Positions 16,075-16,320 of a DNA stretch of 64,000 bases are shown here, in pieces. This DNA is from a virus (Duplodnaviria; Heunggongvirae; Uroviricota; Caudoviricetes): positions 5,472 to 69,471 of IMG/VR virus record IMGVR_UViG_3300031420_000496; one strand, given 5' to 3'. A program made the translations under genes and the position numbers. A model generated the notes under the pieces. It was not told where the DNA came from and did no database searches. It saw nothing but the letters and a program-made list of their open reading frames with translations. How positions within the stretch are numbered: the stretch's first letter is position 1; every line of letters begins with the position of its first letter.

Positions 16075-16320
16075 TCTTGTATGGCATCTCACCGCAGCTT
16101 ATCCCGTACACATTGGTGATTAAGTCTTAGGCTTAGCCCGCACAAACATAGCATCCAGGAAAGTACGCGTTGCCGATCCTGAGTGACGCTTTACCATACA
16201 AACTGTACTTGTCCTTCCCCTGTGACCCGTATCCACCGGTTAGCTGGGATCGCCACCGGATTGTGTCACTCGCAACTCTTTAAATGATGGCTGCTTCTAA
16301 GCCAACATCCTGGGACTTAT
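16075..16320 (-). ncRNA. 23S rRNA GTPase-associated-centre (H42-H44, L11-binding) mimic / rRNA-fragment-like element
   Basis: minus strand 16313-16277 reads CCAGGAUGUUGGCUUAGAAGCAGCCAUCAUUUAAAGA, identical to E. coli 23S 1052-1088; downstream GGGCUAAGCC and AAGCUGCGG segments also rRNA-like; recalled from memory, not searched. Confidence 0.55.

What the first reader, a model, noticed from the sequence alone, without database searches (positions are those of the whole stretch)
16075..16320. Phage intergenic element mimicking the 23S rRNA GTPase-associated centre (L11/L10 and thiostrepton-binding site)
Read on the minus strand, 16313-16277 is CCAGGAUGUUGGCUUAGAAGCAGCCAUCAUUUAAAGA. From memory this is identical to E. 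coli 23S rRNA 1052-1088 (helices 42-44, the 58-mer that binds L11, contacts the L10/L12 stalk and EF-G, and contains A1067). The sequence then diverges (GUUGCGAGUGACAC versus AAGCGUAAUAGCUCAC) but keeps further rRNA-like blocks (GGGCUAAGCC, AAGCUGCGG) and a CCAGG/CCUGG closing stem. It lies in a 430-bp gene-free gap at the head of a long minus-strand operon. Only the universally conserved core is retained, which fits a selected RNA decoy or regulatory leader (analogous to the rplJ leader mimic of the same rRNA site) better than a recent host rRNA pickup. Possible roles are titrating L11/L10 or EF-G, translational autoregulation, or a decoy for ribosome-targeting toxins.
Basis: partly seen in the sequence, partly recalled or inferred. 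Interest (0 to 1): 0.85.

Follow-up and report, generated by a model that had tools for sequence, protein, structure and literature searches.

The report
Phage RNA mimicking ribosomal GTPase centre
This 296-base phage gene makes a small RNA whose core copies the piece of 23S ribosomal RNA where protein L11, elongation factors and thiostrepton bind. It belongs to a large family of such RNAs, apparently undescribed, that sits inside the tRNA gene arrays of many phages.

Summary
The 37-nt identity to E. coli 23S rRNA 1052-1088 is real. The other half of the 58-nt L11/thiostrepton domain (helix 44 plus the 3' strand of helix 42) lies 211 nt downstream. A 16-bp stem closes the whole element, window 16326-16031, minus strand.

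The same split architecture recurs in at least 155 distinct elements, in uncultured viral contigs, isolated jumbo phages (Serratia BF, Cronobacter GAP32, Pectobacterium CBB, Aeromonas 4_4572, Pseudomonas Milchi) and a few bacterial assemblies. It consists of a covarying closing stem, H43, GAGU, a variable 24-435 nt insert, UUUG, and an H44-like hairpin.

Covariation is strong: 89.8% of cells paired against 66% in shuffles, score 0.59 against 0.15. All 642 neighbouring tRNAs are co-oriented with the element.

Longer relatives of the window's subfamily also carry a sarcin-ricin-loop-like hairpin. Rfam has no matching family, and no paper I could search describes it.

Not supported: the CCAGG/CCUGG stem, the other "rRNA-like blocks", and the rplJ-leader analogy. 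The L10 site in H42 is not conserved.

Best reading (inferred, not shown): a stable trans-acting mimic of the ribosomal factor-binding site that binds host uL11 and acts as a sponge or decoy.

The parts
16031..16326 (-). Whole element (296 nt): a split mimic of the 23S rRNA GTPase-associated centre (GAC), closed by a long stem.
   Evidence: Sequence. Same architecture in 155 distinct relatives. Covariation test.
16310..16326 (-). 5' strand of the closing stem (AUAAAAAUAAGUCCCAG). The inner 4 bp correspond to H42 pairs 1052-1055 with 1104-1107. C16314 is bulged.
   Evidence: Pairs with 16046-16031. In the family, 9 of 9 closing-stem pairs show changes on both sides, with all four Watson-Crick types at each position.
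16284..16308 (-). Helix 43 equivalent (nt 1057-1081, AUGUUGGCUUAGAAGCAGCCAUCAU), including A1067 (16298) and U1060 (16305).
   Evidence: Identical to E. coli 23S. In the family, 1057-1081 and 1058-1080 covary, the U1060.U1078 mismatch is kept, and the loop is nearly invariant.
16275..16283 (-). Junction, nt 1082-1090 (UUAAAGAGU). It holds the U1082-A1086 pair, G1087, A1088 (16277), G1089 and U1090.
   Evidence: 1082-1086 covaries (UA 67, CG 36, AU 17). A1088 has no anchor of its own and sits inside the GAGT string that was required to admit a row to this table, so its 137/137 count is fixed by selection; the 18 skipped rows still show an A there in the GAGC, GAAT and AAGT variants. The U1060-A1088 pair is the L11 C-terminal domain contact (PMC2175356).
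16064..16274 (-). Variable insert domain (211 nt), opened by the covarying stem UGC(16274-16272)/GCA(16066-16064). Internal helices: GUGA 16269-16266 with UCAC 16225-16222; AGGGG 16221-16217 with CCCUU 16074-16070; UGUAUGG 16200-16194 with CCAUACA 16084-16078; hairpin GGC-UAA-GCC 16138-16130; UCACC 16119-16115 with GGUGA 16093-16089.
   Evidence: The insert-closing stem has 4 of 4 pairs with double changes. RNAalifold on the 5 closest relatives gives 57 pairs, 31 with compensatory changes. There is no similarity to 23S above chance. Across the family the insert is 24-435 nt with no universal motif.
16060..16063 (-). Family-specific UUUG linker between the insert and helix 44.
   Evidence: The first two U are 135-136 of 137, the third 130 of 137, and G 127 of 137 (A in the rest). 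These counts are inflated by ascertainment, because the 3' search pattern fixed UUUG. The linker is absent from 23S rRNA.
16047..16059 (-). Helix 44 equivalent (GCGUAUCAGC = 1091-1100, with A1095 at 16055), plus A1101, C1102 and A1103.
   Evidence: G1091-C1100 and C1092-G1099 pair in 137 of 137, with three compensatory variants. U1090-A1101 pairs in 137 of 137 and G1087-C1102 in 136 of 137. Loop positions 1096 and 1097 vary freely.
16031..16046 (-). 3' strand of the closing stem (CUGGACUUAUUUUUAU).
   Evidence: Complementary to 16326-16310. Family covariation.

Best explanation
What it is (shown): a gene for a small structured RNA. It belongs to a large family encoded in phage tRNA arrays. The invariant core reproduces the 58-nt L11/thiostrepton-binding domain of 23S rRNA (nt 1051-1108: the three-way junction of H42, H43 and H44). 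The domain is interrupted between U1090 and G1091 by a variable insert and is closed by its own stem.

How it most likely works (inferred):
1. The RNA is transcribed with, or like, the phage tRNAs and is released as a stable RNA.
2. Its core adopts the autonomous GAC tertiary fold.
3. Host ribosomal protein uL11 binds it through the U1060-A1088 surface, giving a free 'stalk-base' ribonucleoprotein.
4. This particle acts in trans as a sponge or decoy for ligands of the ribosomal factor-binding site. It could withdraw exchangeable uL11 from ribosomes, which would blunt RelA activation. Or it could capture a factor that normally docks on the GAC.
5. In longer relatives an added sarcin-ricin-loop-like hairpin supplies the second rRNA half of that docking site.

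The window's copy is a short form without that hairpin.
For: Identity and fold:
- 37-nt identity to 23S, plus a returning H44/H42 half.
- On 64 diverse cores, 89.8% of cells are paired against 66.2% in shuffles. The covariation score is 0.591 against 0.146 (0 of 500 shuffles reach it), and slid registers give 0.11-0.18. 20 of 26 pairs show double changes.

Residues that build the GAC tertiary fold and the L11 contact are kept:
- U1060 in 121 of 121; A1088 is not an independent count, because the GAGT anchor that defined the table fixes it.
- G1071 and C1072 in 136 of 137 each.
- The G1056.A1103 mismatch is kept as G.A or A.A.
- The U1060.U1078 mismatch is kept.
- Position 1061 varies U/A/G, as it does in natural GACs.

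Background from papers:
- The GAC is an autonomous fold, and L11 binding needs that fold (PMC6239185).
- The L11 C-terminal domain contacts the U1060-A1088 pair (PMC2175356).
- The solvent-exposed A1067 and A1095 are about 89-90% A in samples not anchored on them. That points to a ligand contact as in the ribosome. The statement that these two bases are exposed and not needed for the fold is from my memory.
- The L10 site (H42 core) is not conserved (PMC1635324). Of the stalk proteins this points to L11.

Trans-acting RNA gene:
- 642 of 642 neighbouring tRNAs are co-oriented, and 42 of 103 loci have a tRNA within 60 nt.
- No conserved neighbouring protein.

SRL-like hairpin in relatives:
- The exact 12-mer AGUACGAGAGGA occurs in 10 distinct elements (0.003 expected by chance), and 7 more have one mismatch. 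The closing stems covary.

RelA link:
- The L11 N-terminus is required for RelA activation, and the tRNA elbow contacts the L11 stalk (PMC4974054).
Against: - There is no expression, processing or binding data. Every functional step is inferred.
- The single-sequence minimum-free-energy fold is no better than shuffles (z = 0.10).
- The insert enters within H44, and 9 members carry a second hairpin inserted after A1077. Either could disturb the L11 surface. This cannot be judged without a 3D model.
- A1067 and A1095 are not invariant, unlike in rRNA.
- uL11 is mostly ribosome-bound. A sponge would need high copy number, and the exchangeability of L11 is from my memory only.
- The SRL-like hairpin occurs only in one sub-lineage and is absent from the window's copy. 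Its tetraloop varies (GAGA, GGGA, GAAA, AGAA and others). Per sequence, the 12-mer match to 23S has z of only 1.5-2.3.
- No phage-encoded partner protein was found.
Confidence: 0.45

Rival explanations
1. Decoy or inhibitor for enzymes and antibiotics that attack the ribosomal GTPase centre. These could be ADP-ribosyltransferase toxins of the Tre23 type (H44), SRL-cleaving or SRL-depurinating toxins, or thiopeptides. On this view the RNA offers a surrogate target and protects host ribosomes so that phage translation continues during abortive-infection or interbacterial attack.
For: - Toxins that target exactly this rRNA domain exist. Tre23 ADP-ribosylates nt 1095-1098 of H44 and impairs the EF-G GTPase (PMC8661411).
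- VapC-mt20 cleaves the SRL (PMC7180214).
- The RNA lies in tRNA arrays. Phage tRNA arrays are thought to offset host tRNA-directed defences (from my memory).
- A GAC plus SRL combination occurs in relatives.
- There is precedent for phage RNA mimicry defeating a defence system: pseudo-ToxI (PMC3475682, listed).
Against: - These toxins are catalytic, and ribosomes are abundant, so a stoichiometric decoy protects poorly.
- Tre23 acts on actively translating ribosomes (section title).
- VapC-mt20 does not cleave isolated SRL fragments.
- The Tre23 target nucleotides 1096 and 1097 are the most variable core positions in the family.
- Thiopeptides do not reach most Gram-negative hosts of the cultured carriers (from my memory).
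Confidence: 0.2
2. Exapted fold. The GAC domain is retained only as an exceptionally stable, Mg2+-dependent tertiary module that nucleates folding or multimerisation of a larger RNA. The function would lie in the variable insert or in an RNA-only assembly, as for the ROOL and GOLLD RNAs that also occur in phages. No ribosomal ligand would be involved.
For: - The insert is large, structured and lineage-specific, with its own covarying helices.
- The GAC is an autonomous compact fold (PMC6239185).
- ROOL, GOLLD and OLE form RNA-only assemblies (PMC12286853, listed).
- A1061, reported there to increase the stability of the E. coli GAC tertiary fold when Mg2+ is present, is common in the family (32 of 121; PMC6239185).
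Against: - The only universally conserved part is the GAC core. The insert has no universal motif and can be as short as 24 nt.
- The exposed A1067 and A1095 are about 90% conserved although not needed for the fold (the structural statement is from my memory).
- The SRL-like hairpin in relatives is hard to explain by folding alone.
Confidence: 0.15
3. Cis-regulatory leader, as the reader's rplJ-leader analogy suggests. A ribosomal protein would bind the mimic and control translation or termination of the downstream minus-strand genes, here the PTH2-like gene at 15948.
For: - In the window the element sits 83 nt upstream of a PTH2-like gene, at the head of a run of minus-strand genes.
- A homologous small gene follows the element in 6 loci.
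Against: - No conserved downstream gene in 97 of 103 loci.
- Many copies lie directly between tRNA genes.
- The element is closed on itself by a long stem and has no conserved link to a ribosome-binding site.
- The L10-binding H42 core is absent.
- No match to the Rfam leader families.
Confidence: 0.05
4. Host rRNA fragment: a recent pickup, a pseudogene, an assembly chimera, or an exon-intron-exon relic of a mobile rRNA intron.
For: - A 37-nt perfect identity to enterobacterial 23S.
- A genuine 23S piece does occur in one deposited phage record, Paenibacillus phage Pd_22F.
- Group I introns are known near this rRNA position (from my memory).
Against: - No flanking rRNA sequence is present.
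- Family-specific signatures are absent from 23S.
- There are at least 155 divergent copies with compensatory changes.
- No Rfam intron hit, and no full LSU hit.
- Inserts as short as 24-40 nt, with no ORF.
Confidence: 0.02

Closest known systems
23S rRNA GTPase-associated centre, the 58-nt L11/thiostrepton-binding domain (nt 1051-1108, H42 top, H43, H44)
   Same: - H43 is identical or nearly so.
- The same junction residues are present: U1082-A1086, G1087, A1088.
- The same H44 hairpin is present (GC-GUARNA-GC).
- The G1056.A1103 and U1060.U1078 mismatches are kept.
- Natural-style variation at position 1061.

   Different: - It is free-standing, not part of a 23S gene.
- It is split between 1090 and 1091 by a 24-435 nt insert plus a UUUG linker.
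- Position 1101 is A, pairing with U1090.
- The H42 conserved core and kink-turn are replaced by a plain stem.
- A1067, A1095, 1096 and 1097 are less constrained than in rRNA.

Ribosomal-protein leader mimics of rRNA (for example the rplJ/L10 leader, which mimics the H42 region)
   Same: An RNA outside the ribosome that imitates an rRNA protein-binding site from the same stalk-base region.
   Different: - Those are cis-acting mRNA leaders upstream of ribosomal-protein genes in bacteria, and they mimic the L10 site.
- This one is phage-encoded, lies among tRNA genes, has no ribosomal-protein gene downstream, and keeps the L11 site rather than the L10 site.
- No Rfam leader family matches.

Large ornate phage-associated ncRNAs (ROOL, GOLLD)
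   Same: Structured non-coding RNAs of unknown function found in phages or prophages, often near tRNA genes (context from my memory; papers listed).
   Different: - No sequence or structure match (Rfam).
- Those have no rRNA-derived core.
- This family is smaller, roughly 130-540 nt.
Bacterial Y RNA / YrlA (a modular RNA with a tRNA-like domain that tethers Ro60)
   Same: A modular ncRNA that imitates a translation-machinery RNA and is thought to work by recruiting a protein. It is also found in phage tRNA regions; a weak YrlA-like hit lies in L281.
   Different: - A different mimicked molecule: tRNA, not the rRNA GAC.
- A different protein partner.
- No Rfam match at the element.
Isolated GAC and SRL oligoribonucleotides ('ribosome in pieces', Munishkin & Wool 1997; from my memory, not checked here)
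   Same: Small RNAs carrying the thiostrepton domain or the sarcin-ricin domain were reported to bind EF-G on their own. The long relatives of this element carry both modules in one RNA.
   Different: Those are laboratory constructs. This would be a natural, phage-encoded version with an added variable domain. Binding has not been tested.

Membership tests
23S rRNA GAC domain (homologue or mimic of nt 1051-1108) | H43 hairpin with the UUAGAAGCA loop and the pairs 1057-1081 through 1065-1073 | tested here: met
   Identical in the window. Pairs are kept and covary in the family.
23S rRNA GAC domain (homologue or mimic of nt 1051-1108) | H44 hairpin (G1091-C1100, C1092-G1099, GUAAUA-type loop with A1095) and the G1087-C1102 pair | tested here: met
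   In the window, GCGUAUCAGC at 16059-16050. In the family, 137 of 137 and 136 of 137 paired, with three compensatory variants.
23S rRNA GAC domain (homologue or mimic of nt 1051-1108) | Tertiary-fold and L11-contact residues (U1060, A1088, G1071, C1072, U1082-A1086, G1056.A1103) | tested here: met
   All present in the window. U1060, G1071 and C1072 are invariant or nearly so, and the 1082-1086 pair covaries, in the family. A1088 is not an independent test: the GAGT anchor used to build the table fixes it. The actual 3D fold was not testable.
23S rRNA GAC domain (homologue or mimic of nt 1051-1108) | Contiguous part of a 23S rRNA gene (continuous H44, conserved H42 core, flanking rRNA) | tested here: not met
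   A 211-nt insert lies between 1090 and 1091. There is no flanking rRNA similarity. H42 is replaced by a generic stem. So this is a mimic or derivative, not an rRNA gene.
23S rRNA GAC domain (homologue or mimic of nt 1051-1108) | Binds uL11 and thiostrepton | not testable with these tools
   Needs EMSA, filter binding or a structure.
L10 (rplJ) leader and other ribosomal-protein leader mimics | Located in the 5' UTR of the regulated ribosomal-protein operon | tested here: not met
   Downstream genes are not conserved, and tRNA genes flank most copies. The window's downstream gene is PTH2-like.
L10 (rplJ) leader and other ribosomal-protein leader mimics | Mimics the L10-binding H42 core or kink-turn; matches the Rfam model | tested here: not met
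   The closing stem has no conserved sequence. No Rfam hit at E <= 10.
ROOL / GOLLD / other Rfam ncRNA families | Match to the family covariance model | tested here: not met
   No Rfam 15 family matches the window element or five relatives. The single exception is one sub-threshold LSU_rRNA hit over the GAC region (21.8 bits against a gathering score of 50).
Group I intron inserted in an rRNA exon | Intron core (P3-P9) detectable; flanking exons continue as rRNA | tested here: not met
   No Intron_gpI hit. Inserts can be as short as 24-40 nt. The exons stop at the closing stem.
Sarcin-ricin loop mimic (applies to relatives, not to the window copy) | Hairpin with the bulged-G motif AGUA/GAA and a GAGA tetraloop (23S 2653-2667) | tested here: inconclusive
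   - The exact AGUACGAGAGGA occurs in 10 distinct relatives, near-exact copies in 7 more, and the closing stems covary.
- The loop varies between lineages, and the per-sequence significance is weak.
- The window has a plain GGC-UAA-GCC hairpin at what I judge, from the UUAAG-like motif that follows the hairpin in both forms, to be the equivalent place; long and short forms were not aligned together.

The most novel reading that the evidence does not exclude
Many large phages encode a free-standing RNA replica of the ribosome's translation-factor docking site: the uL11-binding GAC, with a sarcin-ricin loop added in some lineages. It would be produced alongside their tRNAs. It would capture a ribosome-directed ligand, such as uL11 and through it RelA signalling, a translational GTPase, or a ribosome-inactivating immune toxin. 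That would make it a new class of RNA-based host-takeover or anti-defence factor, built by copying a functional centre of rRNA.
Probability: 0.4. Interest if true: 0.95.

Novelty: categorically new. Interest (0 to 1): 0.88.

Why it matters
- Phage-encoded tRNAs, ribosomal proteins and translation factors are known. A phage-encoded mimic of an rRNA functional centre is not, as far as Rfam 15 and the searchable literature show.
- The family is widespread. It occurs in isolated jumbo phages of Serratia, Erwinia, Cronobacter, Pectobacterium, Xanthomonas, Pseudomonas and Aeromonas. It also occurs in at least about 200 uncultured viral contigs from many habitats, and in contigs binned with Clostridia, Bacteroidales, Bdellovibrionota, CPR and other lineages.
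- It is unannotated in GenBank records.
- It is directly testable, because culturable carriers exist, the rRNA fragment it imitates has well-established binding assays (uL11, thiostrepton, EF-G), and the core is only about 60 nt.
- If it binds uL11 or a factor, it would reveal a new way for viruses to manipulate translation, the stringent response or ribosome-directed immunity.
- It would also give a natural example of an rRNA domain evolving as an independent gene.
- It also matters for annotation. These loci could be mistaken for rRNA contamination, or overlaid with spurious ORFs, as in phage Milchi.

Tried and rejected
1. Rfam. Gathering-threshold scan of the whole window, E <= 10 scan of 15900-16500, and scans of five family loci. 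Only tRNAs matched, plus one sub-threshold LSU hit. It is not a known family.
2. Single-sequence minimum-free-energy folding. z = 0.10, and the predicted fold misses the GAC junction. Uninformative for this kind of tertiary-structured RNA.
3. Consensus promoter and terminator scan. Nothing usable on the minus strand.
4. Smith-Waterman alignment of the insert against E. coli 23S gives no more than chance. The GGGCUAAGCC is instead a small hairpin conserved in the subfamily (GGGC-GAA-GCCC in relatives).
5. Search for other rRNA modules (for example the A-site finger) in long-form inserts. Only the SRL 12-mer recurs.
6. Conserved protein partner. All-against-all BLAST of 1,412 same-strand neighbouring ORFs found no family in more than 6 of 103 loci. 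I did not run Pfam on all neighbours.
7. A universal motif in the inserts, by k-mer counts over 109 non-redundant inserts. None was found; there are only sub-lineage motifs (GGUAAGG, GGGGAAGG).
8. Megablast of the surrounding 2.5 kb against INPHARED. No close relative of this phage. The nearest DNA ligase is 38% identical (Ralstonia jumbo phage RsoM2USA).
9. Literature: ten searches and checks of the two large structured-RNA catalogues. No description was found. The family could still be among the thousands of unnamed candidates of PMC10690425, or in papers not held in the library.
10. I did not build a covariance model, because anchored motif extraction already gave gapless core alignments.
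Full report
**Observation**

Read on the minus strand, window 16313-16277 is CCAGGAUGUUGGCUUAGAAGCAGCCAUCAUUUAAAGA. BLAST against all 5,426 complete E. 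coli genomes finds this 37-mer at 100% identity in the 23S rRNA genes of every genome. In locus L001 it lies at annotated 23S position 1048-1084, which is canonical 1052-1088.

The gap is 441 bp. It runs from the ATG of a PTH2-like minus-strand gene at 15948 to a small plus-strand ORF that starts at 16390.

Two details of the observation fail.
- The 'further rRNA-like blocks' are not above chance. The best local alignment of the insert to E. coli 23S scores 22, against 21.4 +/- 2.3 for shuffles.
- The proposed CCAGG/CCUGG closure lies in a stretch that the closest relatives lack.

**Anatomy in the window**

Four IMG/VR contigs share the junction 30-mer. Aligning them exposed a second conserved block at the 3' end: AUUUGGCGUAnnAGCACAC. 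Compared with E. coli AAAGCGUAAUAGCUCACUGG, this block is helix 44 plus the 3' strand of helix 42.

The element is therefore the complete 58-nt L11/thiostrepton domain, split in two. Coordinates were checked.
- 5' closing strand: 16326-16310.
- H43 (nt 1057-1081): 16308-16284.
- Junction UUAAAGAGU (nt 1082-1090): 16283-16275.
- Insert of 211 nt: 16274-16064.
- UUUG linker: 16063-16060.
- H44 GCGUAUCAGC (nt 1091-1100): 16059-16050.
- A1101, C1102, A1103: 16049-16047.
- 3' closing strand: 16046-16031.

The closing stem has 4 bp equivalent to H42 pairs 1052-1055 with 1104-1107, then a bulged C16314, then 12 further base pairs.

**A large family**

Of these loci, 103 (93 distinct) have the H43 core 70-394 nt upstream.

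- 62 matches have the exact 3' block and 54 a close variant.
- None is a true 23S gene. The only genuine rRNA sequences were my E. coli control and a 23S fragment in Paenibacillus phage Pd_22F.

In all I collected 155 distinct elements with inserts of 24-435 nt, median 136. A further 27 distinct elements came from a subfamily scan of metagenomes and IMG/VR.

Cultured phages also carry it: Serratia BF, Erwinia pEa_SNUABM_12 and relatives, Cronobacter GAP32, Pectobacterium CBB, Xanthomonas XbC2, Aeromonas 4_4572 and Pseudomonas Milchi. Pseudomonas pf16, UNO-G1W1 and Astolliot, and Xanthomonas XacN1 and XaC1, matched on the 5' half only, so I did not confirm the full architecture in them. In these records the locus is unannotated, or is overlaid by a small hypothetical ORF.

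In 185,579 species-representative genomes a stringent pattern found 39 sites. Of these, 26 are real elements. Most lie on MAG contigs and three lie in isolates. They again sit with co-oriented tRNA arrays of up to 25 genes, as expected for phages or prophages.

**Structure is under selection**

I took 64 maximally diverse cores and replaced the variable interior of the insert with NNNN, which gave a gapless alignment (A2). The named structure has 26 pairs.
- 89.8% of cells are standard pairs, against 66.2% in shuffles.
- The covariation score is 0.591 against 0.146. No shuffle of 500 reaches it.
- Registers slid by 1-3 nt give 0.11-0.18.
- 20 of 26 pairs change on both sides: 9 of 9 in the closing stem, 4 of 4 in the insert-opening stem, 4 of 8 in H43, the 1082-1086 pair, and 2 of 2 in H44.

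Position counts on all 137 anchored cores:
- 1057-1081 is AU 100, CG 15, GC 2.
- 1058-1080 is UA 51, GC 37, AU 22, CG 7.
- 1082-1086 is UA 67, CG 36, AU 17.
- The U1060.U1078 and G/A1056.A1103 mismatches are retained.
- U1060, G1071 and C1072 are essentially invariant. A1088 sits inside the GAGT anchor that defined the table, so its constancy there is not independent evidence.
- Position 1061 is U 75, A 32, G 11. The same position varies in natural GACs, and A1061 stabilises the Mg2+-dependent fold (PMC6239185).

Family-specific features absent from rRNA:
- The insert itself.
- The UUUG linker.
- A1101, which pairs with U1090 in 137 of 137.

These features argue for a single origin followed by independent evolution, not repeated capture. 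Copies in cultured phages differ from their hosts' GAC sequence.

Ascertainment caveat: my search patterns fixed A1067 or A1095. In the sample not anchored on each base, A1067 is about 89% A and A1095 about 90% A. Loop positions 1096 and 1097 vary freely.

**Context**

ARAGORN finds 642 tRNA genes in the 103 loci, and every one is on the strand of the element. 69 loci have a tRNA, and 42 have one within 60 nt. One array (L143) holds two copies.

An all-against-all comparison of 1,412 same-strand neighbouring ORFs found no protein family in more than 6 loci. One of those is the PTH2-like gene that follows the element in the window.

The element thus behaves as an RNA gene embedded in tRNA arrays. 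It does not behave as a leader of a particular operon.

The window itself carries 28 tRNA genes, all on the minus strand. Its phage is distant from any sequenced one. The nearest DNA ligase is 38% identical, in Ralstonia jumbo phage RsoM2USA.

**The insert, and a sarcin-ricin-like module in relatives**

Inserts share no universal motif.

The window belongs to a subfamily marked by GAGU-NNC-GAG at the start of the insert and (C/U)UAGAG-NN-UUUGG at its end. RNAalifold on its five closest short-form members gives 57 pairs, 31 with compensatory changes. These include:
- GUGA/UCAC
- AGGGG/CCCUU
- UGUAUGG/CCAUACA
- a GGC-UAA-GCC hairpin
- UCACC/GGUGA

Longer members of the same subfamily (380-450 nt, many from human-gut contigs of 150-190 kb) have a different hairpin at the place where the window has the small GGC-UAA-GCC hairpin. 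I infer that equivalence from the shared UUAAG-like motif after the hairpin, not from a joint alignment of long and short forms. That hairpin contains AGUACGAGAGGA, the core of the 23S sarcin-ricin loop.
- The exact 12-mer occurs in 10 distinct elements. Chance expectation over all collected sequence is 0.003.
- 7 more have one mismatch.
- The closing stems covary (UUCCA/UGGAA, UUCCG/CGGAA, CCCGG/CCGGG, CCCAC/GUGGG, CUGCG/CGCAG, CCUCG/CGAGG).

Caveats:
- The tetraloop varies between lineages.
- The bulged-G motif is a common RNA module.
- Per sequence, the match to 23S has z of only 1.5-2.3.
- The window's copy lacks the hairpin.

Even so, the GAC and the SRL are the two rRNA elements that together form the factor-binding site (as stated in PMC8661411). 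The combination is therefore suggestive.

**Mechanism**

Shown:
- A conserved, structured, rRNA-derived RNA gene family lies in phage tRNA arrays.
- Its core preserves what defines the uL11-binding domain.
- Its core does not preserve the L10-binding H42 core (PMC1635324).

Established background:
- The GAC folds autonomously, and L11 binding requires that fold (PMC6239185).
- The L11 C-terminal domain binds tightly and reads the U1060-A1088 pair (PMC2175356).
- The L11 N-terminus is needed for RelA activation, and the A/R-tRNA elbow contacts the L11 stalk (PMC4974054).

Inferred: the RNA is released as a stable species, folds like the GAC, binds host uL11, and acts in trans as a sponge or decoy for ligands of the factor-binding site. 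I put about 0.45 on this reading. I put about 0.6 on uL11 binding alone.

The physiological outcome is open. Candidates are a blunted stringent response, capture of a GTPase, or something else.

**Rivals**

- A decoy for GAC- or SRL-directed toxins (0.2). Tre23 ADP-ribosylates nt 1095-1098 of H44. However, such enzymes are catalytic. Tre23 acts on translating ribosomes. VapC-mt20 does not cut isolated SRL fragments. Positions 1096 and 1097 are the least conserved core positions.
- An exapted stable fold serving the insert or an RNA-only assembly (0.15).
- A cis-regulatory leader (0.05).
- An rRNA pickup or intron relic (0.02). The evidence above counts against these last two.

**Comparison and novelty**

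The element works like, and derives from, the 23S GAC, but it is not an rRNA gene. It resembles ribosomal-protein leader mimics only in concept and fails their defining features.

No Rfam 15 family matches. Ten literature searches, and checks of Weinberg 2017 and the two Fremin/Bhatt catalogues, found no description. The virus catalogue states that no rRNA predictions overlapped its candidates.

I cannot exclude that the family is among unnamed catalogue entries, or in papers not held in the library. On the evidence available I rate it as a new kind of phage-encoded RNA.

Noticed in passing
window 15589-15948 (-), TAG at 15936-15934; tRNA at 17782-17857 (-): The PTH2-like gene just downstream of the element starts at ATG 15948 with a good Shine-Dalgarno sequence, but has an in-frame TAG at codon 5 (M H K L TAG I S K P Q K T Y L Y T I S R R D L...). 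ARAGORN finds a tRNA with a CUA anticodon 1.8 kb upstream. Only 3 of 115 long minus-strand ORFs end in TAG (TAA 58, TGA 54). Reading TAG through would fuse ORFs 27369-28058 and 28071-28886. This suggests amber suppression or partial TAG recoding in this phage.
   Followed up: partly
window 17540-17764 (-): A 74-aa protein with a DksA/TraR C4 zinc finger (Pfam PF01258, 41.3 bits against a cut-off of 24.9). It lies next to the suppressor tRNA, 1.2 kb upstream of the element. From my memory, TraR-like proteins act on RNA polymerase in a ppGpp-like manner. That may be relevant if the RNA also touches the stringent response.
   Followed up: partly
window 214-10860 and 17782-17857 (-): 28 tRNA genes, all on the minus strand (ARAGORN). 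Several have long variable regions or odd anticodon loops, for example 5049-5123 with a 2-nt 'anticodon' call. The GAC-like element here lies 5 kb from the main array rather than inside it.
   Followed up: no
window 20690-21985 (-); 42132-43562 (-); 46364-47713 (-); 24938-26161 (-): PurZ-like adenylosuccinate-synthetase homologue (phrog_1211), a hint of a 2-aminoadenine 'Z' genome. Also an RNA ligase, an ATP-dependent DNA ligase and a NadR-like cytidylyltransferase/NUDIX protein.
   Followed up: no
L002 (Paenibacillus phage Pd_22F, MZ092003.1 about 83,4xx-84,0xx), locus position 2374 onward: Unlike the family, this deposited phage genome holds a genuine, continuous 23S rRNA stretch (…AAAGAGUGCGUAAUAGCUCACUGGUCGAGUGAC…GGGGCUAAAC…) in an unannotated region near the genome end. 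It is probably host rRNA carried in the record.
   Followed up: partly
L127 3715-3775 (+): A compact GAC-like element without the insert and without the GAGU/UUUG signature (…GGCUUAGAAGCAGCCAUCGCUUAAUCAACGCGUAACAGCGAUCACC…). It lies 300 nt upstream of a co-oriented tRNA-Ser. It may be a second, insert-less type of phage GAC mimic.
   Followed up: partly
L012, L041, L052, L077, L078, L081, L102, L109, L110 (elements found): Nine family members carry a second insertion, an extra hairpin placed right after A1077 in the 3' strand of H43. The family therefore tolerates expansions at two defined points of the GAC fold: 1077/1078 and 1090/1091.
   Followed up: no
L143 5137-5340 and 5455-5690 (+): Two copies of the element in one 19-tRNA array, flanking a tRNA-Pro.
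   Followed up: no
L281 9155-9267 (-): A sub-threshold match to the Y RNA-like family YrlA (33.8 bits against a gathering score of 69), in the same tRNA array that carries a long-form GAC/SRL element. It may be another RNA-mimic gene in these arrays.
   Followed up: no
window 16390-16653 (+): An 87-aa lysine- and glutamate-rich ORF on the plus strand, divergent from the element, in an otherwise almost entirely minus-strand region. It has no Pfam match.
   Followed up: no
L125 (Pseudomonas phage Milchi) 5031-5162: The GenBank record annotates a 43-aa 'hypothetical protein' on the opposite strand, exactly over the GAC-like element. It is probably a spurious ORF call.
   Followed up: no
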